Positions 1,470 to 17,452 of a stretch of 64,000 nucleotides of DNA are shown here, piece by piece (position 1 is the stretch's first letter; each line of letters starts with the position of its first letter). The DNA is from a virus. The DNA lies in the IMG/VR virus record IMGVR_UViG_3300009085_000002, positions 1-64,000 of that record; one strand, 5' to 3'. Position numbers and translations under genes: made by a program. The notes below the pieces were generated by a model. That model searched no databases, was not told the origin of the DNA, and saw only the letters and a program-made list of their open reading frames with translations.

Positions 1470-1482
1470 AGTTATTATTAAT

Positions 1483-2018: not shown

Positions 2019-2019
2019 A

Positions 2020-3232: not shown

Positions 3233-3272
3233 TGAAAAGGGATGTAGGGGTTTATAGCACTCTACACCCTTA
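3233..3272 (-). terminator. hairpin/terminator after the 3280-3513 gene
   Basis: Minus strand AAGGGTGTAG ... CTACATCCCTT followed by TTT. Confidence 0.55.
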
Positions 3273-3279
3273 TGAATCC

Positions 3280-3513: not shown

Positions 3514-3550
3514 AATATAATTATTTTAAAGTTAATAGTCAATTAAAAAT

Positions 3551-3712
3551 GTCTAGGTTACTAACCTTTGACCAGGTTACTGTGAGTAGAAGCTTTTTAC
3601 TACAAGTTTAACACCATGTAGGTTTAACACCAAGGGTTTAAGACTTATAATCCTTCTACATTCCTAGACTATTTACTGAGACTTCCTTTACTCAGTAAAC
3701 CACAGTGGAAGT
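3551..3712 (-). ncRNA. putative structured RNA element with pseudoknots (strand inferred from flanking genes)
   Basis: Six complementary segment pairs and an 11-nt direct repeat within a 210-nt intergenic gap. Confidence 0.5.
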
Positions 3713-3724
3713 ATTTTAGAATAG

Positions 3725-3958
3725 TTAATTTTTATAGTCATATAATTCTTCATATAGCTCTTTAGCCAACTTCTCAAGAACTATTCTTTTATTTTCTCCT
3801 TGTAATCCTGTTTTTTCATAGTATAAATTACTAGGTAATCTATAAAAAACAGTAATAATTGGATTATGATCTGGTCCAGTTTTACTAACTACACCATTTT
3901 CTAATGCAGCTCCAAATTCTTTTTGAACTGTTTCTGCTAATTTAACTCTATAGTCCAT
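3725..3958 (-). CDS. stand-alone double-stranded RNA-binding domain (DSRM)-like protein
   Basis: MDYRVKLAETVQKEFG...KTGPDHNPIITVFY...GENKRIVLEKLAKELYEEL follows the RNase III dsRBD pattern (DYKtxLqE, GPdH, KKxAEqxAAk). Confidence 0.6.
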   Translation of the reverse strand: MDYRVKLAETVQKEFGAALENGVVSKTGPDHNPIITVFYRLPSNLYYEKTGLQGENKRIVLEKLAKELYEELYDYKN

Positions 3959-4016
3959 AATATAATTATTTAAGTGAATAATCAAAAAGCAATTCTACCA
4001 ACAATTACTATAGGTA

Positions 4017-4253
4017 TTAGTATAACTCATTATACCATTCTATAGCTTCTGTTAGTGAATCTGTAAACTTATTAAATAGTAATTTATGTTCTTTAGCATT
4101 ATTACTTTGAGTTACACAAAATTTAGAACATATTTTATCATTCTCTATTGTAAAATGAATGAATAGTCTTTTTAATTCTTTAACAGAACTTGCTAATATA
4201 TAAGTATGTTCTATTATATTATTAAGATCTATTACATTTATTGTGTGTTTCAT
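4017..4253 (-). CDS. hypothetical protein
   Basis: 78-aa ORF. Confidence 0.65.
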   Translation of the reverse strand: MKHTINVIDLNNIIEHTYILASSVKELKRLFIHFTIENDKICSKFCVTQSNNAKEHKLLFNKFTDSLTEAIEWYNELY

Positions 4254-4387
4254 ATAGATAAAATTAAGAAAAACTGGAGGATATAAAACAAAACCTAAAA
4301 CATTATTTAATACTAAAACAGATATATGAAAAAAAAATCTAGTAAATGAGTCACAATTAAAAGAACGAAATATCCTCCAGTATATTT

Positions 4388-4561
4388 TTAGTTAGATAAA
4401 TATAAGAATAATGTCCAGCTTATTATTACTAATACAAGATGTATCATGTTGTAAGTTGTATACTTATTACTATAGTATCTATTTATCACATAATTTATAC
4501 CACTGATTATATAAGTTATTGATAAAGATAAACTAATTGCAAATACAATATAATACCACAT
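4388..4561 (-). CDS. small 2-TM membrane protein (57 aa, not in ORF track)
   Basis: Hand translation MWYYIVFAISLSLSITYIISGINYVINRYYSNKYTTYNMIHLVLVIISWTLFLYLSN*. Confidence 0.55.
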   Translation of the reverse strand: MWYYIVFAISLSLSITYIISGINYVINRYYSNKYTTYNMIHLVLVIISWTLFLYLSN

Positions 4562-4592
4562 ATTATTTAGTTTTAAGTTAAATTCAAAGTAA

Positions 4593-4618
4593 CTACAGAG
4601 TATTATTAACTCTGTAGT
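4593..4618 (-). terminator. hairpin after the 4620-4868 gene
   Basis: ACTACAGAG...CTCTGTAGT inverted repeat. Confidence 0.5.
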
Positions 4619-4619
4619 A

Positions 4620-4868
4620 TTAGTTCATTGACTCTAAACTCTCTAAGTTTATAAATAAATCTTCTTTTGACAATGTGTCATTATAGAAGTATATATTTAG
4701 AGAGTCAGATCTTTTATTATTAGAGTTAGTTGGCATATTTTCCAACACTCTAATCATTTCTTTTTCAATCTTAATTGTTTGATATTTGTAATATAAATAA
4801 GTTACAAATATACCTAATGCAAATGCACCAGAAAAAACAAAGAAGATTATTAATGATAGTTTAAGCAT
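4620..4868 (-). CDS. hypothetical membrane-anchored protein
   Basis: N-terminal hydrophobic helix. Confidence 0.65.
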   Translation of the reverse strand: MLKLSLIIFFVFSGAFALGIFVTYLYYKYQTIKIEKEMIRVLENMPTNSNNKRSDSLNIYFYNDTLSKEDLFINLESLESMN

Positions 4869-4891
4869 AGTGGTAGATTTAATTAATTAAT

Positions 4892-4924
4892 AAAAACCTA
4901 AGAGGACTATTATATCCTCTTAGG
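4892..4924 (-). terminator. intrinsic terminator
   Basis: CCTAAGAGGA...TCCTCTTAGG stem with T-run on the minus strand. Confidence 0.65.
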
Positions 4925-4973
4925 AAATGTCTAAATTAATTTTATGTAATACAAAAGTTGAATAGAACTAAAT

Positions 4974-5063
4974 CTATCCAATAAGATTAATAGCTATTAC
5001 AGCTAAGCTAGCTACAAAAACTATACTATAGAATATTGTAGCAGAAATTTCTAAAGTTTTCAT
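4974..5063 (-). CDS. 29-aa single-TM peptide (not in ORF track)
   Basis: MKTLEISATIFYSIVFVASLAVIAINLIG*, lying between two hairpins. Confidence 0.45.
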   Translation of the reverse strand: MKTLEISATIFYSIVFVASLAVIAINLIG

Positions 5064-5106
5064 ACTAATAAGTTTAAGATTAAATATATAAGATTAAAGA
5101 AAATAC

Positions 5107-5137
5107 AAAAGAGAAAGCAGGAAATTAATCCTGCTTA
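5107..5137 (-). terminator. intrinsic terminator
   Basis: AAGCAGGA-AATTAA-TCCTGCTT followed by a T-rich tract on the minus strand, right after the 5147 stop. Confidence 0.65.
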
Positions 5138-5146
5138 ATTAGCTTA

Positions 5147-5518
5147 CTAAGCTTCTGAACCTTCTTTAATAGAAGCTCTAGTTGTACTGGCAACTTCTAT
5201 TGGTTCAATTTCAAACATATCTGCTGGGCCATATTTATGGCAATACTCTGCAATTTCCAGAGCAGATACTTCAGCAACTTTAGTATAAGTAAACCTTCTT
5301 CCATAAGTAGGATCAGCCTCAACTTCTCTTACTTGAAATAAGTAGGACTTACCTACCTGTAGTTGCATATTTTCTGCTATTGTACCAGAAAGTACATTCC
5401 TGTTAGGAAATATTCCTGACAATACATTAAGAATTACAGGTTCCTTACCATTTTTGTCTAATGATGCATTAGGACCATTAAACTTACTAGCTACTGCTAA
5501 AATTAGTGCGTTAAACAT
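5147..5518 (-). CDS. first gene of the early cluster; hypothetical beta-rich (possibly OB-fold) protein
   Basis: 123-aa ORF, DKNGKEPVIL...PNRNVLSGTIAE...GKSYLFQVRE...YGRRF; has its own terminator. Confidence 0.7.
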   Translation of the reverse strand: MFNALILAVASKFNGPNASLDKNGKEPVILNVLSGIFPNRNVLSGTIAENMQLQVGKSYLFQVREVEADPTYGRRFTYTKVAEVSALEIAEYCHKYGPADMFEIEPIEVASTTRASIKEGSEA

Positions 5519-5744
5519 AACTTTAAATTTTAAAAATTAATACATAAATTACACTGGCAATAAGCAAATGGGTACTCCCATCAGCCCAATGCAAACTTTG
5601 GTGGGGGTGCTTTAGGGTAGGTACTACTCATACCTGGTAACATAGATAATTTTGATAATTTTATGTTTAGTAATATAAAGTACTATATTTAAATAAATAT
5701 AATTTAACTAAATATGTGCTATTTATATGTCTTTAGATATAATA

Positions 5745-5845
5745 AATAAAAAATCCCTGAGTAGTTAGAGTTACATGCAGGGATTTGAGGAATTGCTCAT
5801 GACTATTAATTGTAATACCATGCAAGCAATTATTGAATTAAAGAT
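5745..5845 (-). ncRNA. putative ~100-nt small RNA (or 16-aa peptide unit)
   Basis: Consensus promoter at 5850-5881, hairpin 5791-5831, terminator AAATCCCTG/CAGGGATTT plus T-run. Confidence 0.5.
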
Positions 5846-5849
5846 ATAG

Positions 5850-5881
5850 CAAAGATAATACTAAAAAAATTAAAAATCAAG
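5850..5881 (-). promoter_or_regulatory. Bacteroidota primary-sigma promoter (leftward)
   Basis: CTTG-N20-TATCTTTG. Confidence 0.7.
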
Positions 5882-5911
5882 TAAAATTAAATAAAAATAA
5901 TTAAAAATAAA

Positions 5912-5943
5912 TTTGCATAATATATTAATTTTTATTATATTTG
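5912..5943 (+). promoter_or_regulatory. Bacteroidota primary-sigma promoter (rightward, start of late block)
   Basis: TTTG-N20-TATATTTG. Confidence 0.8.
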
Positions 5944-5960
5944 CTAAAGAAATTTGTTAT

Positions 5961-6353
5961 ATGTCACATCAACTAATAATTGTTATTGTACCCTGGTTAT
6001 TATTAATTTTAGAAGGACTATCTGAAGGCTTATATGATAAAGATTTTAAAAGTTTATCTAAGAAATTTCAGGCATTACTAATTATTTCATGTTTTATATT
6101 TCTTCCACAGTTATCCTGGTGGAAAGAAATGAGTTTATTTTTTGTAGTTTATTTAAGTTATAGAATACCAGTAATAAATCTTACTTATAATAATGTAAGA
6201 GAGTTTAATTGGTATTTTTTAGGTACTACTTCTATAACTGATAGAATTGTTAAAGTTATTTCCAGAAGAATTCCTTTATGGTTTATATATACATTTTTAT
6301 TTATGGTGGGTATATTAGTAACTGCATTAGGATTTTATTATAAATTTGTTTAA
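5961..6353 (+). CDS. multi-TM membrane protein
   Basis: Start reassigned to ATG 5961 because the track's TTG 5913 lies in the promoter -33 box; several hydrophobic helices. Confidence 0.7.
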   Translation: MSHQLIIVIVPWLLLILEGLSEGLYDKDFKSLSKKFQALLIISCFIFLPQLSWWKEMSLFFVVYLSYRIPVINLTYNNVREFNWYFLGTTSITDRIVKVISRRIPLWFIYTFLFMVGILVTALGFYYKFV

Positions 6354-6654
6354 TATAAAAATTAAAATTATGCATTATTATGAATTAATACAATTTCTAA
6401 TTAAAGAATCCCTAGAGAGAGGTATAAAACCTACGATTCTTGTACTAGACAAATTAACTAGAAAAGAATTTTTTAAAGATTCCATGATTAATATACAACA
6501 TTTAGATGGAAGTTTTGTATATTCTTCCAAAGAAATAGAAGATATTTTAGAGAAAAAGGAAATTAAATTAATAACTTTGTCTGGAATTGATTTATCTATA
6601 GAACAAAGTGATGAGATAGAATCATTTAATAAAATACATATAGAACTAAAATGA
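6346..6654 (+). CDS. hypothetical protein
   Basis: 102-aa ORF overlapping its neighbours. Confidence 0.65.
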   Translation: MFNIKIKIMHYYELIQFLIKESLERGIKPTILVLDKLTRKEFFKDSMINIQHLDGSFVYSSKEIEDILEKKEIKLITLSGIDLSIEQSDEIESFNKIHIELK

Positions 6655-7127
6655 AAAAATTACTAAAAGATTTATTTTTTGATTATTATCTTCCTAAAAT
6701 AGGTTTAGGATTTTTATTGATTCTTATAGGAGATATTTATTATGATTATATTGTAGGTTTCTGTATATTTATACTAGGGGTACTTATACTAGGAATTACT
6801 TTTTTAACTAGTCTATATTTTGCAATAAAAAATCTAAATATAATAAGTAAAATAAAGAGATTTAAGGCAACTCAACTTAGAAAAAGATATGCTAGGGCAC
6901 ATACTACCTTAGATAGTGAGGGGTTTATTAAGATACTTCATTATAAAAATTCGTGTTACTATAAAGATTACTATGTAGAATCTAATATAATTAAAGATGC
7001 CTGTAGAACTAGAAAACAATTAGAAAAAGAGTTTTTAAAAGTAAGAACTGAATATATAAATAATTTACTGGAAATAGATGAATTAAAATTAGAAATACTA
7101 TATCTAAATAAAAAATATGAAAAATAA
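6651..7127 (+). CDS. hypothetical membrane protein
   Basis: Two N-terminal TM helices. Confidence 0.65.
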   Translation: MKKLLKDLFFDYYLPKIGLGFLLILIGDIYYDYIVGFCIFILGVLILGITFLTSLYFAIKNLNIISKIKRFKATQLRKRYARAHTTLDSEGFIKILHYKNSCYYKDYYVESNIIKDACRTRKQLEKEFLKVRTEYINNLLEIDELKLEILYLNKKYEK

Positions 7128-7482
7128 AGTTATAAAACTTAAAATAAAAAGTCCAATTGGCTGGGTATATTTTAATGATTGGAAAGAATTAAAGTTTATA
7201 ACTAGTGATTGTATAGGTTATTTTACACGAATAAGAAGATCTTATGAAAGTAAACCTATTACAAAAATTAAATATATGATCCCAGGAAAGAACAAGAATG
7301 AATTTACATTAATATTTCAAGAGTCGTGGTTTAATAAAGGAGATATATTAGAAACTCAGGATAAACTCAAATATAAAGTAGTTAAAGTTTATAAATATAA
7401 TTGGTATAGGAAATTACGTAATTTTTTAGGATTAAGTTTTAAATCATCTAAATGTATTAAAGTAAAAGAGTGTGGAAAATAA
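7117..7482 (+). CDS. hypothetical protein with a capsid-like segment
   Basis: GKNKNEFTLIFQESWFNKGDIL resembles MCP segment GKGLSTFYMHFAENYFGKSEQI. Confidence 0.6.
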   Translation: MKNKVIKLKIKSPIGWVYFNDWKELKFITSDCIGYFTRIRRSYESKPITKIKYMIPGKNKNEFTLIFQESWFNKGDILETQDKLKYKVVKVYKYNWYRKLRNFLGLSFKSSKCIKVKECGK

Positions 7483-7771
7483 TATTTTAGATTTTAAAAA
7501 GAGATTATTAATTAATGAAGAAATAGAATGTAAAAATAATACTTCTATTAAGTTAGGGCCACTAAAAAGTACAAGATTACAAGAGAATATATCTTATACT
7601 TTCCATTTATGCTCTAAGTTTCATAGTGAATATATTTTTGGAGAATCTTTTAGGGATTTAATCACTTTAGATAAGGAGGATATAGAATATTTTAAGAGGA
7701 AATATTTACCTAAATTAGAAGAAGAATTAAATAATAAATTAGAAAATATTAAAAAAGAGTATGGAAAATAA
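7472..7771 (+). CDS. hypothetical protein
   Basis: 99-aa ORF, translationally coupled. Confidence 0.65.
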   Translation: MENNILDFKKRLLINEEIECKNNTSIKLGPLKSTRLQENISYTFHLCSKFHSEYIFGESFRDLITLDKEDIEYFKRKYLPKLEEELNNKLENIKKEYGK

Positions 7772-8246
7772 ATATTATACTCCTAATATAACTGAATTCT
7801 ATGTAGGATTTGAATGCGAATTCTTTAATAATCAGCAAGATAAGATATGGAAGAAGGAGATATGTGATGAAGATGCTGTTTCAATTGCATATACCACATA
7901 TGAGCACGGTACTTCTGAATGGGAAGATAATATAACTAAAGTATTTAGAGTTAAATACTTAGATAAAGAAGATATAGAAAGTTTAGGATTTAAACAAATA
8001 GAGTATAATAAATCTTTTAGTTCTTCTTGGGCAACACAGTTTGAAAAGAAAGATTACATACTTTATTTAAGTTCAATTCACATAGATTCAAATTCAAAAG
8101 CACTCTTAATAGGTATATCTATAAAAGATAAAGTTAGGTGTTTAAATAAAGATATGACTTATAAAGAAGTTTCTATATTTAGAGGATTTATTAAAAATAA
8201 ATCAGAACTTAAAGTATTATTAAGGCAGTTAAATATACGAGAATGA
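7761..8246 (+). CDS. hypothetical phage protein
   Basis: YYTPxITEFYVGFECE ... RVKYLDKEDIESLGF ... FRGFIKNKSELKVLLRQL. Confidence 0.75.
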   Translation: MENKYYTPNITEFYVGFECEFFNNQQDKIWKKEICDEDAVSIAYTTYEHGTSEWEDNITKVFRVKYLDKEDIESLGFKQIEYNKSFSSSWATQFEKKDYILYLSSIHIDSNSKALLIGISIKDKVRCLNKDMTYKEVSIFRGFIKNKSELKVLLRQLNIRE

Positions 8247-8371
8247 AATATTTATATTTTAAACATAAATTAACACAAGTAACTGGAGTTATGACAGTAG
8301 ATCCTAGAGAAGAACTTGAAGTATTAAAGCTCAAGTATAAAAATTACGACGTTAAATTATTAAATTTTTAA
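8243..8371 (+). CDS. small hypothetical protein (42 aa, not in ORF track)
   Basis: ATGA overlap with the upstream stop; MKYLYFKHKLTQVTGVMTVDPREELEVLKLKYKNYDVKLLNF* fills the gap. Confidence 0.6.
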   Translation: MKYLYFKHKLTQVTGVMTVDPREELEVLKLKYKNYDVKLLNF

Positions 8372-8374
8372 TGT

Positions 8375-8665
8375 ATGATTAAAGAATTCACATTAGGAGC
8401 AGTTAAATGGAAAGTAGAAATAAATAATAAACTTACAGATGAGAATGGGATATATGGTAGATGTATTCCAGATAGTTCTAAAATAATTCTAGCGGATAAT
8501 TATAGAAGTGTAAAAAGAACTAAAGAGTCTGTAGAAGAAACATTATATCATGAAGTTGTACATGCTATATTAAGTTCTTTAAATTATATAGATTTATATC
8601 AGGATGATTTATTTGTACAACAATTAGCAGTATTATTATATCAGTTTGATAAAACTAAGAAATAA
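8375..8665 (+). CDS. small zincin-like metallopeptidase domain protein
   Basis: ETLYHEVVHAIL (HExxH). Confidence 0.7.
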   Translation: MIKEFTLGAVKWKVEINNKLTDENGIYGRCIPDSSKIILADNYRSVKRTKESVEETLYHEVVHAILSSLNYIDLYQDDLFVQQLAVLLYQFDKTKK

Positions 8666-9594
8666 TGAATATAATACAAATAGTAGATAGTTTTAAACAA
8701 AAGCCTTATCTTATAAGAATGGGTAAGTCTAAGATATCTAAAATACTTAATTGTACTGAAGAAGATGTAGTTAAAGCTAGAAAAATTATTAAAAATAAAC
8801 AAACTAATCGTGCAATAAATATGGTAAAGGCACGATCACCAAAAGCAAAAATATTATTATTTGATTTAGAAACTTCTCCAATAACAGCTTATGTATGGAA
8901 GACTATAAAAGAATTTATACAACCAGAACAAATAATAAGAGATTGGACCATATTAACTTATTCAGCTAAATGGTTAAATGAAGATAAAATATTTAGCGGC
9001 ACTGCAAAAAATGAAAAAGATTTTAATGATTATAACTTAGTTAAAGAAATGTGGTACTTACTAGATGAAGCTGATATAATTATAGCCCATAATTGTAATA
9101 GGTTTGATAGAAAAAGAATAAATGCCAGATTTTTATTTCATGGTCTAACTCCACCTAGTCCTTATAAAGTTATAGATACTTTAGAGATTGCTAAGCATAA
9201 TATAGGAACTACTTATGGTAAATTGGATTTTTTAGCTAAATATATAGGTAATGAAGGTAAGATGGAACATGAAGGTTTCTTATTATGGAGAAAATGTATG
9301 GAAGGAGATCTTGTTGCATGGGATACAATGTCAGAATATAATAAAAAAGATGTAATTGAATTAGAAAAATTATATTTAACTCTAAGACCTTGGGATAGTA
9401 GACATCCTAACTTAGGAGTATTTAAAGAAGATCCTAATATGTGTTGTACTAAATGTGGTTCTAAAAATTTAGAATATATGAAGGATGTTTATACTAATAC
9501 ACGTGTATATAAATTATATAAATGTAATGATTGTCATGGATGGAGTAGGAGTAGAACTGGACAAAATAAAACTAAAGCATTAATAACACAATAA
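8665..9594 (+). CDS. DnaQ/RNase H-like 3'-5' exonuclease with C-terminal Zn ribbon
   Basis: ILLFDLETSP (ExoI), AHNCNRFD (ExoII), YNKKDV (ExoIII), CTKCGS...CNDC. Confidence 0.85.
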   Translation: MNIIQIVDSFKQKPYLIRMGKSKISKILNCTEEDVVKARKIIKNKQTNRAINMVKARSPKAKILLFDLETSPITAYVWKTIKEFIQPEQIIRDWTILTYSAKWLNEDKIFSGTAKNEKDFNDYNLVKEMWYLLDEADIIIAHNCNRFDRKRINARFLFHGLTPPSPYKVIDTLEIAKHNIGTTYGKLDFLAKYIGNEGKMEHEGFLLWRKCMEGDLVAWDTMSEYNKKDVIELEKLYLTLRPWDSRHPNLGVFKEDPNMCCTKCGSKNLEYMKDVYTNTRVYKLYKCNDCHGWSRSRTGQNKTKALITQ

Positions 9595-9604
9595 ATTATA
9601 AATT

Positions 9605-9919
9605 ATGCAAAACGAAGAATTAAAACAAGAAGATGTAATTAAAGAAGAAGTTAAAATTGAAAAAACTGAAAAAGATAAGAATAATAGAATTAAAGAAGCT
9701 AAAATTAAATTAGAACATTATAAAAATTTTCTAAAAACAGAGTTTAATTTTTTAGATTTAGAAAATAAATTTTTAAAAGCTAAGATAGATAATCACTTCT
9801 TAACTCAGAAATATAATGAAATATTTAAGCCTAAATCAACTATTGAACCTATAGTTGAAAAGATGGAAGAAGATAAAGAAGAGCCTTCAGTAAAAAATAT
9901 GAATGGTGAAACTATCTAA
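9605..9919 (+). CDS. hypothetical charged coiled-coil protein
   Basis: 104-aa E/K-rich ORF. Confidence 0.7.
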   Translation: MQNEELKQEDVIKEEVKIEKTEKDKNNRIKEAKIKLEHYKNFLKTEFNFLDLENKFLKAKIDNHFLTQKYNEIFKPKSTIEPIVEKMEEDKEEPSVKNMNGETI

Positions 9920-9964
9920 TTATTAAATGGTTAAATATAAAGTTCTTTGATTTATAAAAATAAA

Positions 9965-9996
9965 TTTGCTTTTTGAGTTATTTTTTATTACTTTTG
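9965..9996 (+). promoter_or_regulatory. Bacteroidota primary-sigma promoter
   Basis: TTTG-N20-TACTTTTG. Confidence 0.8.
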
Positions 9997-10000
9997 TTAA

Positions 10001-10348
10001 GTGATCTTGCTACCCCTCAGATTTTAGAGTAGTAACCTAAAAGGAAAGGGAGAAGTAGATTTGTAAGGATAAGAACTCCAAAAGAGTACACTTCATTGAC
10101 AAGTAAGATACTATCCTGAGATAATCTATAGTCACAAAAAGTTCTTAAATATAATAGTTAGGTAAATGGGGATTCAAGCTTAAGGGTAAAGGAGCTTCCC
10201 TAATTGGACTTCACATCCAATTTTCAGTGATGATAATTTGATTAGTTAATGACTATGAGATAACGTACGGCCTAATTAGAAGTTTTAAGAATGCTTATTA
10301 GAACAAGAGTAGTAAAAGTCTCTAGGGGTTTACTTATGTTCTTTTTTT
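10001..10348 (+). ncRNA. putative ~350-nt structured non-coding RNA
   Basis: No long ORF, relatively GC-rich; bounded by a consensus promoter and a terminator-like hairpin (AGAACA/TGTTCT + T-run); many internal complementary segments. Confidence 0.6.
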
Positions 10349-10426
10349 ATTAGGTATTAATTAGTTAAGAACCTAATTATTAGAATATAATAGTAAAGTT
10401 GCGTTACATATATTCAGATAACAACT

Positions 10427-10807
10427 ATGGCAGAAAATAAAAAATTGAAAACTATTGACATAGTTGCTAAAGATCATAAAGAGGTTTTTGACAACTATGT
10501 AAGATTTATTGTAAAACCAATATATAATTTAACTGAGAGAGAAGCTGAAGTGGCTTCTCTTTTATTATACATGTTTAATGTAGAAATTAGTAAAGGTGAA
10601 AGTATAAAGGCAGCAATGTTATTTGTATTTCATCCTGATTCTAAATTAAAGATTATAGAAGAATTAAAAATAACAGAATATACTTTAAATAATATTTTTT
10701 CTACTTTAAGAAAGAAGAAATTTATAAAAGAAAAAGAAATTGAGAATATTAATTTAATTTATGATCCTTCTAAATACAAAGGAATAACATTATATATAAA
10801 TGAATAA
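10427..10807 (+). CDS. winged-HTH-like DNA-binding protein
   Basis: LTEREAEV...IIEELKITEYTLNNIFSTLRKKKFI pattern. Confidence 0.6.
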   Translation: MAENKKLKTIDIVAKDHKEVFDNYVRFIVKPIYNLTEREAEVASLLLYMFNVEISKGESIKAAMLFVFHPDSKLKIIEELKITEYTLNNIFSTLRKKKFIKEKEIENINLIYDPSKYKGITLYINE

Positions 10808-10982
10808 GACTTTACCTAATAATATATATGTAGAATCTGATCTTGGTACATTTTTAGAAACTTCTATAAATATTCTTTTACAATTAGAAGATAATGAGAA
10901 TATTAAGACAGACAGTACTATTTATATAGGTAAAGAATATAATATATTAACATTTAATTCTTATGTTGTACAAACTAGTTAA
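10800..10982 (+). CDS. hypothetical protein
   Basis: 60-aa coupled ORF. Confidence 0.6.
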   Translation: MNKTLPNNIYVESDLGTFLETSINILLQLEDNENIKTDSTIYIGKEYNILTFNSYVVQTS

Positions 10983-11223
10983 AAGTGAAGTAGATAAAAT
11001 AGCAAAAGCTAAAAAAATACCTAAGAGCTATTTGATGGATATTTTTGAAACTCCTTTTGAGTTGGCTGCACAAATTATAAAACAAGGTCCAGATGAGAAG
11101 GGTAAGTTTAAAAATATAAGAATACCTGGATTTTGTTTATTTTATGTTTCTAAGAGAAAACAAGAAAGTTATTTAAGAAGATTAGAAGAAAAATTACAAT
11201 ATGAGTCTAATAAAAAACTTTAA
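10963..11223 (+). CDS. HU/IHF-like DNA-binding protein
   Basis: IAKAKKIPKS helix followed by NIRIPGFCLFYVSKRK, resembling the HU V.I.GFG.F motif. Confidence 0.6.
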   Translation: MLYKLVKSEVDKIAKAKKIPKSYLMDIFETPFELAAQIIKQGPDEKGKFKNIRIPGFCLFYVSKRKQESYLRRLEEKLQYESNKKL

Positions 11224-11737
11224 CATACAAGATAATTTTTGGGAATATAATCAACAATTATCTATTATAGGATCCATTAGTGAACTTTATAATAAAGATA
11301 AAAGTCCACATAAACAAGATAGTTCTAAGATTATGTGGGCTATAGTAATGTTAATAGATATAAATTCTTCAAATAAATATAGAACTTTATCAGAAGAAGA
11401 TAGAAAGAAATTAATAATTACAGATTATTTAAAGAATCCTAAATTTAAATGGGAAGATTATAAAGATATAATTAATGATTATAAGAAATTAGCATTATCT
11501 CCAGAAGAAAGAAGACTTATGGAACATGATATAAAAATGGAAGAGAGGTCTACATTTATAAAAAATACTAAATATAGCTTAGATACTGCTAATTTATTAG
11601 ATAATATGGAAAAGAATAGGGTATTATTAGGAAAAATTAGAAAAGAATTAGTAGAATTAGCAACAGAAAAAGATGGAAATTCTATGAGTGTAAGAGGAGA
11701 TAAAAAATTATCAGCTAGGGAACAAGGTATAATATAA
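11201..11737 (+). CDS. conserved protein upstream of TerL, candidate terminase small subunit
   Basis: Position immediately 5' of TerL; helical 178-aa protein. Confidence 0.45.
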   Translation: MSLIKNFNIQDNFWEYNQQLSIIGSISELYNKDKSPHKQDSSKIMWAIVMLIDINSSNKYRTLSEEDRKKLIITDYLKNPKFKWEDYKDIINDYKKLALSPEERRLMEHDIKMEERSTFIKNTKYSLDTANLLDNMEKNRVLLGKIRKELVELATEKDGNSMSVRGDKKLSAREQGII

Positions 11738-11738
11738 T

Positions 11739-14700
11739 ATGAGCTTATTTATAAGAATAAATAATAGAAAAAACTTTTTACTTAAAGAAATTCCTTCTTT
11801 ACATCCAGATAGTATGGCTTATATAGAATATTGGGGAGAACAAACTAAAAGGTGTATAGAAGGTTTTTGGGGAATAGATGATAATAATATACCTTGTAAT
11901 ATAGGAGAAGTTGGTTGGGATAAAGATATAAATTCTAGTAGTTGGAGATTTATACCACCTGTTCTTTATTTTTATATTAATTTTGGAACTATTTTACATA
12001 AACCAGAAGATGCTCCTAAATCTGAGCCACAACAAAAGATGAAACCATTATTAAGAGATTTTGATTGGGAATTTCATTATAATTGGATAGAAGCTAGAGG
12101 ATTCTCTGGATTTGAAGAAGATGAAGAATATACTTGTTTAGAAGATGTATTAGAATGGAAGTTAGGAAGATTAACTAAGAAAAATATACATAAGTCTGCT
12201 TTTAATAAAGATCACAAATTAAAGGAGTATGTACCTACCAGAGAATATATAAGAAGATTGTTTAATAAACCTATGGGTACGCCTATATATCAAAATGAAC
12301 CTAAGAGCTTCTTTGTATTATCTTCACGTGGTGGTGGTAAGTGCCTAAAAAACAGTGAATTAGTATATTATAAAGATAGGGTTGGAACTATTGGAGAAGT
12401 TAAAGCAGGAGATGAAATATATGGATCTGATGGTAAATTAACTGTAGTTACTAATGTATACCCTCAGCCAAAAAAAGTATTATATAAACTACAATTAAGA
12501 GATGGTAGAGAAATTATTTGTTGCGAGGAACACATATGGAAAGTTTTTGATAAATCTAATAGAAAGTTTTTAAATTTAAAATTAAAAGATTTTAAAGATT
12601 CCTATTATAATATAAGAATAGATTCTAAGCATAGAGAGAAATATAAAGAAGCTAAATATGTAAAGGAATTTAAATATGCTATACCAAATAGTATAGGCGT
12701 AGACTTTTCTGAAAAAATACTTCCTATAGACCCATATACTTTAGGTTTATTATTAGGAGATGGGTGTATAACTAATAATTATTATTCTATTAAATTTACT
12801 ACAGGAGATAGTCAACTAGTAAATTGGTTAAAAAATAAGTATCCTGATAAAATATCTATTTATAATAAAGGAAAAAATTATGAATTAACTTTTAGAGGTT
12901 CATTTCTAAATAAAGAATTAACTTGTTTAAACTTATTAGGTACTTACTCTAATACTAAATTTATTCCTAATATATACTTATATAGTAGTAGAGAACAAAG
13001 ATTAGAGTTATTAAGAGGATTAATGGATACAGATGGATTTGCAGATTCTAGACATACGGAATATTATACAACTTCTAGTAAGTTAGCAGATAATGTAGTA
13101 TTTTTGTTACAAAGTTTAGGCATACAATGTAAAAAATCTATTAAAGAGAGTAGTTATAAAGATAAGAATAATAATAAAGTAAAATGTAAGGATTGTTATA
13201 GAATTAGCCTATACACAGATAAAAAAATATTTAATTTAGATAGAAAACAGTCTAAAGTTCAGAAATTATCTAAGACTTCTAAATCTAAATTAGAAAAATC
13301 TTTTATAACTAGTATTGAATATTATGGAGAAGATTATTCTACTTGTATAAAAGTAAGTAATAAGGATCATTTATTCTTAACAACAGGATTTACTATTACA
13401 CATAATTCTTATGATGGTGCAGCTTGTGATGCACATGAACTCTTATTTGATGGATTGAAAAAGTATATACCAGGAACTATTTCTAAAACTGTTGTTAGTA
13501 TTGTAGTAGGTGCATCTATTGGAGATAAATCTTCTGAAACTATAGAAAAAATAGTAACAATGTTTGAAAATTTACCTGGTGGTTGGAAAGAAAATACTAT
13601 AGAGGCTAGACCAAGCCCATTTGCTAAGATAATGGTAGGTTCTACTAAACCTAATAATGGAGATAGTCCTTGGAGAAATGAAATACCTGTTAATGTTGGT
13701 GGTATTGATAAAGTTATGGGTTCTGGATGTAAATTAAAACATGTTATTTTTACTAGTAATAATCCTCAAGCTGCTGCTGGAGGTAGAAATACTATTATAC
13801 ATGTAGAAGAAGTTGGTTTATGCCATAATTTATTAGATGTACATGGATCTAATGAAGCAAATCAATTTATAGACCATTATATAGGAAGTTCTTTATATAC
13901 TGGCACTGGAGGTAATGTTGATAAAATTATGGAATCAGAGAAGATATTTAGAAATCCTAAAGATTATAGAATGCTTGCATTTGATGATATATGGGAGAAT
14001 ATGGGTAGTATAGGATGGTTTGTTCCTGCAACACATACTAATAATAAATTCAAAGATGAGAATGGAAATACTGATGAAGAAGAAGCTATGGCTTTCTATG
14101 AGAAAAGAAGAGAAGATAAAAGAAAGTCTGTAGACTCTAAAGCATTAGAATATGAAATGATGAATTATCCTCTTATTCCTTCAGAAATGTTCTTATCTAC
14201 CAAATCAAATAGATTTCCTTTAAATATACTTAGATTAAGAAAGTCTGAATTAATATCTACCGAATTATCTAAAGGTTTAGGTATGACTGGATTTTTTGAA
14301 GAAGAAGAGGGAGAATCTGTATGGAATCCTACTCTAGATGTAGTTCCAATTAGAGAATTTCCATTATCTAGAACTTCTAATAGTACAGGTTGTATTGAAA
14401 TGTGGGAATTACCTAAGAAAGATAATGATGACGAAATAATTAGAGGAAGATATATTGCAGCTTTAGACCCTGTAGATGATGATGAAGAAAATACTATAGG
14501 GACTAAAAGATCTCTACAATCTTTTTGGATATTAGATCTATGGACAGATAGATTAGTTTTAGAATATACTGGTAGAACTGAGTTTGCAGAAGATTTTTAT
14601 TCACAGTGTTTATTAGCTACTTTATTTTATAAAGCTACAATACTATATGAGAATCAAAAGAAAGGATTCTTTACTTTTATGGATAAAATGAATTATCTTA

Positions 14701-15107
14701 GTTTATTAGAAGATAATCCAAAACAACTACAAAGTACTGAAGATTTAGGTATAGGTAAAATTAAAAATACTAAAAAGGGAGCTTATTTAACAGGACATTT
14801 AAAAAATTGGGGTTTAGAAATGTTAAATGAGTATTTAAGAAAAACTGCATACGGAGAAGAATCTAAGACAAATGCAACTAAATTAAAATCTTTAGGGCTA
14901 GTTTTAGAATTATTATCTTATGGACCTAAAGTAAATGTAGATAGAATTTCCTCATTAATAATACTAATGATATATAGGAATTTAAAAGAGAAAGAAGTTT
15001 TAGAAAGTAAAACTAGAAAAGTAAAAGCTTATGTAAAAGATCCTTTTATAGAAAGAAATTATGGTAAATTTGAAATATTTGATAAAAAGAATATATGGAC
15101 AATATGA
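11739..15107 (+). CDS. terL: terminase large subunit (intein-containing)
   Basis: Walker A SSRGGGK|S, Walker B IIHVEEVG, nuclease ALDPVD and ILYENQK motifs; precedes portal. Confidence 0.93.
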   Translation: MSLFIRINNRKNFLLKEIPSLHPDSMAYIEYWGEQTKRCIEGFWGIDDNNIPCNIGEVGWDKDINSSSWRFIPPVLYFYINFGTILHKPEDAPKSEPQQKMKPLLRDFDWEFHYNWIEARGFSGFEEDEEYTCLEDVLEWKLGRLTKKNIHKSAFNKDHKLKEYVPTREYIRRLFNKPMGTPIYQNEPKSFFVLSSRGGGKCLKNSELVYYKDRVGTIGEVKAGDEIYGSDGKLTVVTNVYPQPKKVLYKLQLRDGREIICCEEHIWKVFDKSNRKFLNLKLKDFKDSYYNIRIDSKHREKYKEAKYVKEFKYAIPNSIGVDFSEKILPIDPYTLGLLLGDGCITNNYYSIKFTTGDSQLVNWLKNKYPDKISIYNKGKNYELTFRGSFLNKELTCLNLLGTYSNTKFIPNIYLYSSREQRLELLRGLMDTDGFADSRHTEYYTTSSKLADNVVFLLQSLGIQCKKSIKESSYKDKNNNKVKCKDCYRISLYTDKKIFNLDRKQSKVQKLSKTSKSKLEKSFITSIEYYGEDYSTCIKVSNKDHLFLTTGFTITHNSYDGAACDAHELLFDGLKKYIPGTISKTVVSIVVGASIGDKSSETIEKIVTMFENLPGGWKENTIEARPSPFAKIMVGSTKPNNGDSPWRNEIPVNVGGIDKVMGSGCKLKHVIFTSNNPQAAAGGRNTIIHVEEVGLCHNLLDVHGSNEANQFIDHYIGSSLYTGTGGNVDKIMESEKIFRNPKDYRMLAFDDIWENMGSIGWFVPATHTNNKFKDENGNTDEEEAMAFYEKRREDKRKSVDSKALEYEMMNYPLIPSEMFLSTKSNRFPLNILRLRKSELISTELSKGLGMTGFFEEEEGESVWNPTLDVVPIREFPLSRTSNSTGCIEMWELPKKDNDDEIIRGRYIAALDPVDDDEENTIGTKRSLQSFWILDLWTDRLVLEYTGRTEFAEDFYSQCLLATLFYKATILYENQKKGFFTFMDKMNYLSLLEDNPKQLQSTEDLGIGKIKNTKKGAYLTGHLKNWGLEMLNEYLRKTAYGEESKTNATKLKSLGLVLELLSYGPKVNVDRISSLIILMIYRNLKEKEVLESKTRKVKAYVKDPFIERNYGKFEIFDKKNIWTI
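12342..13406 (+). mobile_element. 355-aa intein with LAGLIDADG homing endonuclease
   Basis: Begins CLKNSELV after GGGK; block B CCEEHIW; LGLLLGDG and LRGLMDTDG motifs; ends ITHN before +1 Ser. Confidence 0.95.
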
Positions 15108-17452
15108 TAAAATCCTTACCTTCACAAAAGAAGTTAAGAAAACAAAGAACAACTCCATGGTGGAAGGAGTCTATAGATGCCTGTATACAACTAGCTATTG
15201 ATAATTATAGTGCAAATGGAATTAGAGATAATATGATTTCTAATTATTATTTATGGGCTAGCCAATTAGATACGGATGATATAGAAAGAACTTTAAATCC
15301 ATTTAATATTAGAGGTGCTAATTTTCCAGCTAAACCCCAACATTATCCTATAGGTAACCAGAAATTAGCTACTTTAATAGGAGAAGAAAAAGAAAGAAAC
15401 TTTTCTATAAGAGCTTTTGTATCAAACCCTGAAGCTGTCTCTGAGAAGGAAAAAAGAATAATGGATGATGTAATAGATAAATTATTAATCTATACTAATC
15501 CTAATATTACTAAAGATTTAGACGAAAGAAAACTAAAAGAAGCTTTAGATAAATTATCAAAATGGAAAAATTATGATGCACAAGATATAAGAGAAAAATT
15601 TGCCAACTCTATTATACAATATGCAAAAAATATTCATAATATAGATTTTATTAAAAATCAAGGATTTAAAGATTTAGCTTTAAGTGCACATGAAATTTAT
15701 AATATAGATATAATAGGTAAAAGAATTAAGTTAAGAAAATGTAATCCTTTACATATTTATACTTATGGATTAGGAGAGTCCTATAAAATAGAAGATGCAG
15801 ATATAATAGTAGAAGATTGTTATATGTCTATAGGATCTGTTATAGATGAATTTTATGAATATTTAACATCAAAAGATACTACAGATTTAGAAGAAGCTGC
15901 TGGATATGGTAAATCTCATCCTGAAAATAGTATGTTTACTGGAGAAGTAGGATCTCCTACACTTAGTCTTACTAAATATTTTAGTCCTTTGTCACCTACT
16001 AATATAGAAGAGATACCTTTTGATTTAGATAGTTTTCCATCAGAATCCTATGATAGTAAAGGTAATATAAGAGTTACAAGAGTAACTTGGAAATCCAGAA
16101 GAAAATTAAAAGTTGCAGAATATAAAAATGAAGATGGGGAGGCTGTAACTAAGATTTGGGATGAAGAATTTATTCCAGACCCTAATTTAATTGGTTTAGA
16201 GGTTAAAGAGTATTGGGTAAATGAATGGTTAGAAGCTATTAGATTAGGTGCAGATAAATATATTAGAATGAGAGTTAAGCCTATACAATTTAGATATATG
16301 GATAGTTTAATGTTAGGGGGTTCTGGCTATGTAGGAACTATTTTAAGAACTAATAATGGAATTCCTGTATCTTTGATGGATAGATTAAAACCTTTTTCTT
16401 ATATGTATGATTATATAATGATGAAATTAGAATTATTATTAGCTAGAGCACATGGGCCTGAAACTGAATTAGATTTAGCTAAGATACCTGATGGATATAC
16501 TATGGATCATATAATGTATTTTTCTCAGGTTATGGGCTATAGACTTTTAGATTCTTTTAAAGAAGGAGAAAAAGGAGCTTCTAAAAATATAATGGCTGGT
16601 AATTTTAATACTACTGGCAGAGTACTTAATCCAGACTTTAATTCTTTTGTTAGTATGTATATTAATATACTTACATTATTAGAAAATGAAATGGGAAATG
16701 TTACTGGAGTCACTAAACAAAGAGAGGGTAATGTAGGTAATAGAGAAACTATGGGTGGTATTGAAAGAGCAGTTACTCAAAGTACATATAATACAGAGGA
16801 ATTGTTTATGACTCATGAAGATACTATCAAAAGAGTCTATGATTATTTAGTTATTGCATATAAACAACTCTATATTAATGAGAAGCCTTTACATTTACAA
16901 TATGCATTAGATGATGGTACTCCTATTAGTGTTATGATAGATGGAGAACAATTTGCTTCTGCTGATTATGATACTATAGTAGGTAAAGATAGAGATGTAG
17001 ATCAAATTAAACAAATTATGAGAGAATCTGCTTCCAATATGTTACAGAGTAGAATGATTACTTTTTCTCAATTTGTTAAAACTTATAGGGATCCATCTAA
17101 TGCTTCCACTTTAAGAAAACTTGAACAGTTTGAAGAGGAACTGTTGCAAAAAGAGAAACAGTCTTCTGAAGAACAAAATAAAATTGAGATGGCAAAACTA
17201 CAAGATAAACTTGCTGATAGAGATATGATAAAATATAAAGTAGATCAAGATAATTTAACTCAATTACAGATTGCAGCAATGTCTAAAGGTAGAGATAAAG
17301 AATCTGTTCAAGAGGAGCAATTAAAAAGTGAAAGATTAGAAGCTTTAGAACTTAAAAAAATAGAATCTAAAGAAAGAATGCAAGAAAAAGAAATGAGTTC
17401 TAAAGAAAAAATAGAAGATAAAAAGGAAATTAAGAAAAAACAAAGTTCATAA
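15095..17452 (+). CDS. portal protein
   Basis: Between TerL and scaffold/MCP; crAss-type motifs (HYPI...LIGEE, WVNEWLE, SLMDRLKPFSYMYD, GVTKQREG). Confidence 0.9.
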   Translation: MDNMIKSLPSQKKLRKQRTTPWWKESIDACIQLAIDNYSANGIRDNMISNYYLWASQLDTDDIERTLNPFNIRGANFPAKPQHYPIGNQKLATLIGEEKERNFSIRAFVSNPEAVSEKEKRIMDDVIDKLLIYTNPNITKDLDERKLKEALDKLSKWKNYDAQDIREKFANSIIQYAKNIHNIDFIKNQGFKDLALSAHEIYNIDIIGKRIKLRKCNPLHIYTYGLGESYKIEDADIIVEDCYMSIGSVIDEFYEYLTSKDTTDLEEAAGYGKSHPENSMFTGEVGSPTLSLTKYFSPLSPTNIEEIPFDLDSFPSESYDSKGNIRVTRVTWKSRRKLKVAEYKNEDGEAVTKIWDEEFIPDPNLIGLEVKEYWVNEWLEAIRLGADKYIRMRVKPIQFRYMDSLMLGGSGYVGTILRTNNGIPVSLMDRLKPFSYMYDYIMMKLELLLARAHGPETELDLAKIPDGYTMDHIMYFSQVMGYRLLDSFKEGEKGASKNIMAGNFNTTGRVLNPDFNSFVSMYINILTLLENEMGNVTGVTKQREGNVGNRETMGGIERAVTQSTYNTEELFMTHEDTIKRVYDYLVIAYKQLYINEKPLHLQYALDDGTPISVMIDGEQFASADYDTIVGKDRDVDQIKQIMRESASNMLQSRMITFSQFVKTYRDPSNASTLRKLEQFEEELLQKEKQSSEEQNKIEMAKLQDKLADRDMIKYKVDQDNLTQLQIAAMSKGRDKESVQEEQLKSERLEALELKKIESKERMQEKEMSSKEKIEDKKEIKKKQSS

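What the first reader, a model, noticed from the sequence alone, without database searches (positions are those of the whole stretch)
9965..10348. Promoter- and terminator-bounded ~350-nt structured ncRNA upstream of the packaging genes
Seen: a perfect TTTG-N20-TACTTTTG promoter, then ~350 nt with no long ORF and more G/C than its surroundings, ending in AGAACA..AGTAAA/TTTACT..TGTTCT plus a T-run. Pairings: 5' multibranch domain (ATCT..CCCT 10004-17 with AGGG..AGAT 10047-60); AGGATA 10066-71/TATCCT 10112-17; TAAGAACT 10070-77/AGTTCTTA 10140-47; long-range ATCTATAGTCA 10124-34/TGACTATGAGAT 10250-61; TAGTTAGG 10155-62/CCTAATTA 10271-78; AAGCT/AGCTT and AATTGGA/TCCAATT hairpins. Several helices cross. 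Inference: a large phage ncRNA, or an attenuating leader for the HTH-HU-terminase operon. A packaging-RNA-like role is conceivable from its position but is speculative.
Basis: partly seen in the sequence, partly recalled or inferred. Interest (0 to 1): 0.75.

Follow-up and report, generated by a model that had tools for sequence, protein, structure and literature searches.

The report
Long untranslated leader before phage packaging genes
A freshwater crAss-like phage puts about 430 gene-free bases, ending in a weak stop signal, between a strong host-type promoter and its regulator and DNA-packaging genes; this is most likely a control leader, and nothing shows it to be an elaborately folded RNA.

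Summary
The sequence features are real. A consensus Bacteroidota-type promoter lies at 9965-9996 and is the third-best promoter site in the 88,965-bp genome. No ORF follows until ATG 10427, in the longest gene-free gap of the genome, 507 nt. GC is modestly raised. A hairpin plus T7 at 10300-10348 ranks 8th of 246 T-runs.

The "structured RNA" part fails its tests:
- Folding energy equals shuffles, z -0.11.
- Complementary words are not above chance.
- The best sub-domain sits only at the 7.7th percentile genome-wide.
- There is no Rfam match.
- No homologue was found by blastn, nhmmer or a covariance model in about 1 Mb of relatives.

The phage is an orphan: the nearest portal is 48% identical. 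Covariation is therefore untestable, and no RNA data exist.

The downstream 126-aa gene is a conserved crAss regulator. In 15 of 18 orthologous loci the same promoter type ends 14-25 nt before its ATG. Here no other promoter lies in between, so P9965 transcripts must pass the weak terminator.

Best reading: a long 5' leader that gates the regulator-terminase-portal operon. Earlier notes of this scan report analogous leaders in other crAss-like phages on other DNA; I could not test those.

The parts
9965..9996 (+). Host-type (Bacteroidota sigma-A style) promoter: -33 TTTG, 20-nt spacer, -7 TACTTTTG
   Evidence: Exact motif. Its extended flanks are shared with the four other window promoters. 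The leave-one-out weight matrix gives 23.6 bits, third best in the genome.
10001..10299 (+). Body of the untranslated leader. The start near 10001 is inferred, not mapped.
   Evidence: The -7 box spans -12 to -5 in Flavobacterium psychrophilum (PMC9723704, passages read). No ORF. No Rfam match. Six-frame reads with X at stops match no Pfam or PHROG family in a meaningful way.
10141..10292 (+). Only sub-domain with a marginal folding signal: a predicted three-hairpin multibranch closed by 10141-10162 / 10271-10292
   Evidence: z -2.56 and -2.17, but only the 7.7th percentile genome-wide. Covariance model R1, built from it, finds only itself in 1,044,571 bases from 97 sources.
10300..10348 (+). 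Imperfect AU-rich hairpin followed by T7: a weak intrinsic-terminator candidate
   Evidence: -9.4 kcal/mol. 8th of 246 T>=6 runs. The base helix has pairing probability 0.76-0.89 in the full leader. It is weaker than the GC-rich terminators near 24700 and 55650.
10349..10426 (+). 78-nt spacer with no promoter-like site before the regulator gene
   Evidence: The best weight-matrix score between 9997 and 10430 is -7.4 bits, against 16-27 bits for the nine clear promoters.
10427..10807 (+). 126-aa winged-helix regulator gene, first gene of the packaging operon
   Evidence: Orthologues at 33-38% identity, phmmer E 1e-10 to 1e-13. Profile match to the cr85_1 'VpsT-like regulator' at 97% probability. 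Weak MarR/Lrs14-type matches.
10800..17452 (+). Rest of the operon served by the leader: 60-aa, 86-aa (possibly HU-like) and 178-aa genes, large terminase (11739-15107) and portal (15095-17452)
   Evidence: ORF map. Terminase PHROG matches. Portal matches to Crassvirales. The next promoter lies at 17476.

Best explanation
The stretch is the 5' leader of the regulator-terminase-portal operon of an orphan crAss-like phage.

Proposed mechanism:
1. Host RNA polymerase starts at about 10001 from the consensus promoter at 9965-9996.
2. It transcribes about 300 nt of untranslated RNA.
3. It meets a weak intrinsic terminator (hairpin 10300-10342 plus U7).
4. Part of the transcripts end there, giving a roughly 345-nt non-coding RNA.
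5. The rest read through the 78-nt spacer into the winged-helix regulator gene and on to terminase and portal.

The leader therefore acts as a gate that sets, and perhaps times, expression of the packaging genes.

Shown: the promoter, the lack of ORFs, the lack of any second promoter, the hairpin plus T-run, and the orthology and gene order of the operon.

Inferred: the start site, partial termination, and any regulation of read-through.
For: - Promoter quality. 5 motif copies against 1.81 expected, all intergenic and on the + strand; 23.6 bits, third of all genome positions.
- Other promoters. Six of the nine clear promoters have an ATG ORF within 4-29 nt. This one has 430 nt.
- Orthologues. 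In 15 of 18 orthologous loci an exact promoter ends 14-25 nt before the regulator's ATG, and the gene-free gap there is 10-224 nt against 507 nt here. P9965 is therefore the operon's promoter, moved away from its gene.
- No second promoter. No promoter-like site lies in 9997-10430.
- Terminator. The hairpin plus T7 ranks 8th of 246 T-runs, and its base helix is 0.76-0.89 probable in the full leader.
- Relatives. Three distinct relatives (L046, L077/L081, L068) carry a promoter or near-promoter, about 95 nt of non-coding sequence and a GC-rich terminator just upstream of the same gene. The terminator stems differ by compensating changes.
- Same genome, other arm. A second promoter (box ending at 5850, minus strand) is followed by a strong terminator (5753) and 331 nt without an ORF.
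- Compactness. The gap is the longest gene-free stretch in a very compact genome.
Against: - No RNA data of any kind. The one run that holds the sequence is DNA, probably its source.
- The terminator is weak, and a stricter consensus scan did not call it.
- No alternative antiterminator fold of comparable stability was found. Removing the terminator costs only 2.7 kcal/mol, but the terminator dominates the ensemble.
- No Q-type antiterminator gene was found.
- Read-through from the upstream promoter at 5912 could also feed the operon.
- The group A units in relatives are followed by a proximal promoter that this phage lacks, and they share no detectable sequence with it.
- A leader needs neither 300 nt nor raised GC, so part of the observation stays unexplained.
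Confidence: 0.5

Rival explanations
1. A stand-alone RNA gene. The roughly 345-nt transcript from P9965 to the T7 run is the functional product: a folded or trans-acting phage RNA. The packaging operon is then expressed by other means.
For: - The unit is bounded by a promoter and a terminator-like end.
- GC is in the top 1.7% of 200-nt windows.
- Domain 10141-10292 has z about -2.2 to -2.6.
- phi14:2 makes abundant long non-coding RNAs of unknown function from intergenic regions.
- Earlier notes of this scan describe conserved leader RNAs at late-arm heads of other crAss-like phages. These are leads only.
Against: - Whole-RNA z is -0.11.
- Helix counts are at or below chance.
- The region is not an outlier among genome windows.
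- No Rfam match.
- No antisense target above chance in the genome.
- No homologue in about 1 Mb of relatives, nor in two exact-word scans.
- No second promoter for the operon downstream.
Confidence: 0.2
2. A spacer without a role of its own. An insertion, or a decayed gene or mobile element, pushed the operon's promoter 400 nt away from the regulator gene. The RNA is merely tolerated, and the hairpin plus T-run is the leftover terminator of the upstream replication operon.
For: - Relatives have the promoter 14-25 nt from the ATG, so the extra 400 nt is lineage-specific.
- There is no folding signal.
- The genome carries another mobile-looking insert, a LAGLIDADG domain inside the terminase.
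- In relatives a terminator often sits upstream of this gene's promoter.
Against: - Six-frame reads with X at stops match nothing credible in Pfam or PHROGs.
- There is no second copy in the genome.
- Internal repeats and inverted ends are not above shuffles.
- GC is higher than in coding DNA, which is unexpected for decaying sequence in a 26% GC genome.
- The genome is otherwise very compact.
Confidence: 0.2
3. A DNA-level control region: an array of binding sites for the winged-helix regulator or the HU-like protein encoded just downstream. The inverted words that the reader read as RNA helices would then be operator half-sites.
For: - GTTCTT/AAGAAC occurs 5 times against 0.49 expected, raw p 1.5e-4.
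- CTAATTA/TAATTAG occurs 4 times against 0.15 expected, raw p 1.8e-5.
- The adjacent gene encodes a DNA-binding fold.
Against: - The p-values are uncorrected for the many words tried.
- The sites show no regular spacing or clear dyad.
- 22 of 8,846 windows of 510 nt hold at least as many GTTCT words; the listed ones are windows overlapping this region, plus at least one near 84.2 kb that looked like coding sequence by eye.
- The sites lie downstream of the promoter, spread over 400 nt.
Confidence: 0.1

Closest known systems
Lambda late-gene gate: PR' promoter, 194-nt '6S' transcript ending at tR', read through with Q (recalled from textbook knowledge, not from a call)
   Same: A strong constitutive host-type promoter, then a short non-coding transcript that ends at an intrinsic terminator just ahead of the late or packaging genes, with no other promoter for them.
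   Different: - No Q-family gene was found.
- The promoter is Bacteroidota-type.
- The transcript is about 345 nt rather than 194.
- The terminator is weak.
- The first gene is a winged-helix regulator rather than lysis genes.
- Termination and read-through are unmeasured.
Small promoter-to-terminator units upstream of the orthologous regulator gene in IMG/VR relatives (loci L046, L077/L081, L068)
   Same: Same position, after a + strand ORF and before the regulator-terminase-portal genes, and the same parts: a host-type promoter or near-promoter, non-coding RNA, then a hairpin plus T-run.
   Different: - They are about 95 nt, not 345.
- They have GC-rich canonical terminators.
- They are followed by a second, proximal promoter 14-15 nt from the ATG, which the window lacks.
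- There is no detectable sequence likeness: the nhmmer profile gives E 17 inside the region.
Long non-coding RNAs of Cellulophaga phage phi14:2 (g004-g005 and g005-g006 junctions; preprint 10.1101/2020.03.07.982082, passages read)
   Same: A crAss-like phage with intergenic stretches transcribed as abundant non-coding RNA of unknown function.
   Different: - Different place: the early region at the left end rather than ahead of the packaging genes.
- They are present from the earliest time point.
- No sequence likeness: the best blastn match is 29 nt at E 2.4.
Uncatalogued leader RNAs behind host-type promoters at the head of the late arm in other crAss-like phages
   Same: Same kind of place and the same promoter type. 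Sizes are 150-310 nt, and none is in Rfam.
   Different: Those are reported as strongly conserved, with compensating changes. This one has no detectable relative and no folding signal.
HK022 put RNAs and other cis-acting processive antiterminator leaders (recalled)
   Same: Promoter-proximal RNA ahead of a long operon that contains terminators.
   Different: No two-stem put-like fold was identified. Nothing was tested beyond the absence of an Rfam match.
phi29-type packaging RNA (pRNA)
   Same: Only the nearness to packaging genes.
   Different: No Rfam match of any kind. That Rfam holds a pRNA family is recalled, not checked. crAss-like virions are not known to carry such an RNA. No evidence for this reading.

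Membership tests
Any Rfam 15 family (riboswitches, ribozymes, 6S, tmRNA, phage RNAs) | Covariance-model match at or above the family's gathering score | tested here: not met
   0 matches in the whole window at gathering. In 9850-10500 there are only 4 matches, with E 1 to 9.8 and 10.9-18.8 bits against cut-offs of 40-61.7.
Lambda-type late gate (PR'-6S-tR' with Q) | Strong host-type promoter directly ahead of the late or packaging operon, and no other promoter before its first gene | tested here: met
   23.6 bits, third best site in the genome. The best site in 9997-10430 scores -7.4 bits.
Lambda-type late gate (PR'-6S-tR' with Q) | Short non-coding transcript ending at an intrinsic terminator before the first gene | tested here: inconclusive
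   The hairpin plus T7 is present, ranks 8th of 246 T-runs and has pairing probability 0.76-0.89. It is weak, the strict scan did not call it, and there is no RNA run.
Lambda-type late gate (PR'-6S-tR' with Q) | Q-family antiterminator gene in the genome | tested here: not met
   PF06530 and PF03589 give no match at E<=1 in the 88,965-bp genome. Only these two families were tried.
Transcriptional riboswitch or attenuator | Antiterminator fold mutually exclusive with the terminator and of similar stability | tested here: inconclusive
   Barring the terminator's 5' arm from pairing downstream raises the MFE from -73.3 to -70.6 kcal/mol. The terminator still dominates the ensemble. No distinct antiterminator helix was seen.
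Transcriptional riboswitch or attenuator | Conserved ligand- or factor-binding domain | not testable with these tools
   No homologues to compare.
Structured non-coding RNA (generic) | Folding energy below that of shuffled sequence | tested here: not met
   Whole RNA z -0.11. Eight sub-windows give z from +1.57 to -2.56. The best genome-wide composition-corrected rank is the 7.7th percentile.
Structured non-coding RNA (generic) | Compensating base changes across relatives | not testable with these tools
   The nearest portal is 48% identical, then 39% or less. The 126-aa neighbour finds only itself among 5.8 billion proteins.
Promoter-terminator units upstream of the orthologous regulator gene (relatives L046, L077/L081, L068) | Same position relative to the orthologous gene | tested here: met
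   Orthology and upstream maps.
Promoter-terminator units upstream of the orthologous regulator gene (relatives L046, L077/L081, L068) | Sequence likeness to the unit, and a proximal promoter after the terminator | tested here: not met
   An nhmmer profile of the three units against the genome gives nothing in the region better than E 17. There is no proximal promoter.
phi14:2 long non-coding RNAs | Sequence likeness or the same genomic position | tested here: not met
   blastn and nhmmer against L010 (phi14:2 1-9000) give only a 29-nt match at E 2.4. The position differs.
phi29-type pRNA | Family model match; RNA bound to proheads | tested here: not met
   No Rfam match. Prohead association cannot be tested here.

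The most novel reading that the evidence does not exclude
The leader is itself an active RNA. It could be a lineage-specific, roughly 345-nt member of a wider and still uncatalogued class of crAss-phage late-arm leader RNAs that modify host RNA polymerase, put- or EAR-like processive antitermination, so that it reads the 45-kb virion-gene block. Alternatively it could be a trans-acting phage RNA made in bulk from one of the strongest promoters of the genome. The evidence does not exclude this, because homologues and RNA data are missing rather than negative.
Probability: 0.15. Interest if true: 0.65.

Novelty: new variant of a known kind. Interest (0 to 1): 0.35.

Why it matters
How crAss-like phages switch host RNA polymerase onto their packaging and virion genes is poorly understood. 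A promoter, a long leader and a weak terminator in front of a conserved regulator gene give a concrete, testable control point.

The comparison with relatives adds three things:
- The promoter-regulator-terminase-portal arrangement is conserved across the clade.
- The leader is freely remodelled: 14-25 nt in most relatives, a roughly 95-nt terminated unit in some, and about 430 nt here.
- The same genome shows a second promoter-terminator-leader arrangement on its other arm.

On present evidence this is an ordinary regulatory leader in an unusual phage, not a new class of RNA.

Tried and rejected
HOMOLOGY SEARCHES THAT FOUND NOTHING
- blastn (distant mode) of 9600-10900 against 50,697 phage records.
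- blastn and nhmmer against 8 exonuclease-relative loci.
- blastn and nhmmer against 956,972 bases of relatives. Best nhmmer E 2.9, best blastn E 0.12, none at a syntenic place.
- Profiles of the upstream regions of relatives (groups A and B) against the genome.
- Covariance model R1 of 10141-10292 over 97 sources and 1,044,571 bases: only the self match.
- One exact 20-mer in metagenome contigs and one exact 19-mer in viral contigs: 0 hits each.
- Look-ups in this scan's findings by sequence and by relatives: nothing.

READINGS REJECTED
- Coding. No ORF under table 11, TAG=Q or table 4. Six frames read with X at stops match nothing credible: best Pfam E 0.018 at 14.9 bits against a 28.4 cut-off, best PHROG E 0.049.
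- tRNA or tmRNA. ARAGORN finds none in the window or the genome.
- Internal duplication of promoter units. Local alignments between thirds of the gap give p 0.05-0.45 against shuffles.
- Antisense target in the genome. The longest exact match is 13 nt, E 0.37.
- A motif shared with the two other long promoter-headed stretches. None was found.
- Origin of replication or pac site. No iterons. GC is above average, not below. The genome ends are direct terminal repeats about 10 kb away.

DATA THAT WERE NOT AVAILABLE
- RNA evidence. No RNA holder is listed. One DNA run, a freshwater sediment metagenome and probably the source. Laid on 9400-11000 it gives one contig with no variants and no joints.
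- Single-protein locus searches with the 126-aa protein and the terminase found no relatives.
- The exonuclease relatives were not syntenic.

TANGENTS THAT LED NOWHERE
- The cr85_1 leader has no relative among phage records.
- The stretch after the PhiCrAssBcn4 promoter is a tRNA array.
- A T-arm-like motif near 84.6 kb of the genome matches no Rfam family.

PAPERS
- 'crass-like' + 'non-coding rna': 22 papers, 15 listed.
- 'crassvirales' + 'leader rna': 0 papers.
- 'TAnnTTTG' + 'promoter': 26 papers, 12 listed.
- I read passages only, through the find mode, of PMC8375218 (nothing relevant), of preprint 10.1101/2020.03.07.982082 and of PMC9723704.
Supplementary file 1 of the preprint, which lists promoters in 14 crAss-like genomes, may bear on the promoter claim and was not seen.
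Full report
WHAT THE WINDOW IS
The window is the first 64 kb of an 88,965-bp IMG/VR virus record with direct terminal repeats. GC is 26%. The only sequencing run that holds it is a freshwater sediment metagenome. Its portal matches Crassvirales portals at 33-35% identity: phi14:2, cr85_1 and the PhiCrAssBcn phages, 128 records, all under 60%. Among 5.8 billion proteins the nearest portal is 48% identical and the next are 39% or less. The phage is a deep orphan, and that limits every comparative test below.

CHECK OF THE OBSERVATION
- The promoter TTTG-N20-TACTTTTG lies at 9965-9996.
- The composite motif occurs five times in the window against 1.81 expected (4 of 100 shuffles reach 5). All copies are on the + strand and sit in intergenic spacers at 5912, 9965, 17476, 24741 and 36390.
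- The -7 box alone is not enriched: 99 against 102 expected.
- The five share extended flanks and an exact 20-nt spacer.
- A weight matrix trained on 19 other promoters (four from the window, 15 from relatives), leaving this one out, scores it 23.6 bits. That is third best of all positions on both strands of the genome. Nine sites stand clear above 16 bits.
- From passages of PMC9723704, the sigma-A -7 box of Flavobacterium psychrophilum spans -12 to -5, and the median 5' UTR there is 24 nt. I therefore place the start near 10001. This is an inference.
- No ORF follows. Stop-to-stop frames on the + strand are at most 27 aa, and other codes do not help.
- The 507-nt gap 9920-10426 is the longest gene-free stretch of the whole genome.
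- GC rises to 0.35 at 10000-10199. The best 200-nt window is in the top 1.7%.
- The hairpin plus T7 at 10300-10348 folds at -7.5 to -9.4 kcal/mol and ranks 8th of 246 T>=6 runs.
- The seven listed pairings exist.

IS IT A STRUCTURED RNA?
The tests say no, or at least not visibly.
- The full transcript folds no better than shuffles: -74 against -73.4 kcal/mol, z -0.11.
- Complementary 6- to 9-mers are at or below shuffle expectation. The list of helices, including the crossing ones, is what a 346-nt AT-rich sequence gives by chance.
- Of eight sub-windows only 10141-10292 is marginal, z -2.56, and -2.17 in a second run with 5 of 200 shuffles as good. Against all 150-nt windows of the genome, corrected for composition, it reaches only the 7.7th percentile. 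The other windows of the region are average or worse.
- Rfam gives nothing at gathering, and only four chance-level matches at E of 1 or more.
- ARAGORN finds nothing.

HOMOLOGUES
None was found.
- Phage records gave no match.
- About 0.96 Mb of loci from relatives gave nothing by blastn or nhmmer.
- A covariance model of the marginal domain, run over 1.04 Mb, matched only itself.
- Two exact-word scans returned nothing.
- The neighbouring 126-aa protein finds only itself in the word-indexed protein search.
Covariation is therefore untestable rather than negative. No RNA run holds the sequence, and the DNA run gives one contig without variants.

WHAT THE SURROUNDINGS SAY
The 126-aa gene at 10427 is not an orphan.
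- It has orthologues at 33-38% identity (phmmer E 1e-10 to 1e-13) in loci found through the portal.
- Its family matches the 'VpsT-like transcriptional regulator' of cr85_1 at 97% hhalign probability and gene g098 of phi14:2.
- It has weak winged-helix matches.
- Regulator, a few small genes, terminase and portal follow in the same order in phi14:2, cr85_1 and PhiCrAssBcn4.

In 15 of 18 orthologous loci an exact promoter motif ends 14-25 nt before the regulator's ATG. The gene-free gap upstream is 10-224 nt there. In this phage the only promoter is 430 nt away, and nothing promoter-like lies between 9997 and 10430 (best -7.4 bits). So P9965 is the operon's promoter, and its transcripts must cross the hairpin and T-run to express regulator, terminase and portal. 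The next promoter is at 17476.

Three distinct relatives (L046, L077/L081, L068) have, just upstream of the proximal promoter, a further promoter or near-promoter, about 95 nt of non-coding sequence and a GC-rich terminator. The terminator stems differ by compensating changes. This is the same architecture in miniature, but it has no detectable sequence likeness to the window.

Within this genome, three of the nine clear promoters are not followed by an ORF within 30 nt:
- this one;
- one with its box ending at 5850 on the minus strand, followed by a strong terminator at 5753 and 331 nt without an ORF;
- one outside the window, with its box ending at 88203.

MECHANISM
The best-supported reading is a long 5' leader with a weak, probably leaky intrinsic terminator that gates the packaging operon.
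- The terminator's base helix is 0.76-0.89 probable in the full-length ensemble. Forbidding it costs 2.7 kcal/mol, with no distinct antiterminator helix. A riboswitch-like two-state switch is therefore not evident.
- No Q-type antiterminator gene is present.
- Whether read-through is constitutive or raised by a phage factor, or by the leader itself, is unknown.
- The raised GC, the length and the position in a compact genome argue that the stretch is kept for a reason. They do not say which reason.
- The words GTTCTT/AAGAAC (5 against 0.49 expected) and CTAATTA/TAATTAG (4 against 0.15) are enriched at raw p of 1e-4 to 1e-5. They could be alternative pairing registers or protein-binding sites. 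After correction for the many words tried this is suggestive only.

RIVALS
- A stand-alone RNA gene (0.2).
- A tolerated spacer left by an insertion (0.2).
- A DNA-level operator array (0.1).
A decayed gene is unlikely, since six-frame reads match nothing. Internal duplication is not significant. An antisense role within the genome has no support.

COMPARISON WITH WHAT IS KNOWN
In function the unit resembles the lambda PR'-6S-tR' gate (recalled knowledge). It meets the promoter features, is inconclusive on termination, and fails the Q feature.

phi14:2 makes abundant long non-coding RNAs of unknown function, but elsewhere in its genome and without sequence likeness.

Earlier notes of this scan report conserved, uncatalogued leader RNAs behind host-type promoters at the head of the late arm in many other crAss-like phages, on other DNA. 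These are unchecked AI notes without sequences, so I could not test membership. They raise the prior that such leaders matter, but they are not evidence for this one.

I found no paper on leader RNAs of Crassvirales: 'crassvirales' + 'leader rna' returned 0 papers, and 'crass-like' + 'non-coding rna' returned 22 papers, of which I opened the two top-listed and read passages only.

VERDICT
Novelty is a new variant of a known kind, a promoter-leader-terminator gate in an orphan crAss-like phage with an unusually long leader. Interest is 0.35.

Noticed in passing
window 11739-15107: The large terminase is 1122 aa. It has terminase matches at residues about 193-567 and 606-1096, and a LAGLIDADG/Hom_end domain at about 416-494. 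This points to an intein or homing-endonuclease insertion in the packaging ATPase.
   Followed up: no
window 10458-10570: Two strong hairpins lie inside the 5' part of the regulator gene, at about 10458-10500 and 10534-10564. The second has a 13-bp stem followed by a U-rich run. z is -3.10 with 0 of 200 shuffles as good, and these are among the 25 most over-folded windows of the genome. It may be an intragenic terminator or attenuator.
   Followed up: partly
window 5745-5860 (minus strand): A clear host-type promoter (box ending at 5850, 21.6 bits) is followed after about 90 nt by a strong terminator (T-run at 5753, -11.4 kcal/mol). A further 240 nt without an ORF then precede the first leftward gene (ATG 5518), including a GC-rich patch at about 5550-5640. 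This is the same promoter-terminator-leader logic as at 9965.
   Followed up: partly
window 24741-24944: The promoter at 24741 is followed after 4 nt by the ATG of a 55-aa ORF, so its mRNA is essentially leaderless.
   Followed up: no
window 4561-4790, 3151-3360, 721-885, 55606-55905: These are the most over-folded 150-nt windows of the genome after composition correction, z down to -5.8 at 4591. The 55.6-55.9 kb set holds the convergent terminators. The others were not examined.
   Followed up: no
L073:5353-5555, L085:1387-1589, L086:642-844, L036:232-434, L057:426-628, L095:1429-1631: In a second group of relatives a conserved GC-rich element of about 90 nt, followed by a T-rich run, lies just upstream of the regulator gene's promoter. 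In at least one locus (L085, read by eye) the gene upstream of it runs the opposite way. It is conserved across loci whose regulators differ substantially (alignment). Strand and function are unknown.
   Followed up: partly
L046:2347-2551, L077:3880-4083, L068:3081-3284: A small promoter-to-terminator unit (about 95 nt of non-coding RNA and a GC-rich hairpin with compensating changes) sits directly upstream of the proximal promoter of the regulator gene. It is a candidate small RNA or gate in these uncultured crAss-like phages.
   Followed up: partly
G000:C1:88171-88965 (outside the window): A ninth clear promoter (16.1 bits, + strand) near the right end of the genome is followed by no ORF of 40 aa or more up to the end of the record. 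By eye (print-out) the stretch looked like the antisense of minus-strand coding sequence; this was not checked.
   Followed up: no
L127:1179-1337 (cr85_1): In cr85_1 a host-type promoter is followed by a leader of about 125 nt with a long, roughly 17-bp hairpin before a tRNA array. That array heads the arm containing regulator, HU, terminase and portal. No relative of this leader exists among phage records.
   Followed up: partly
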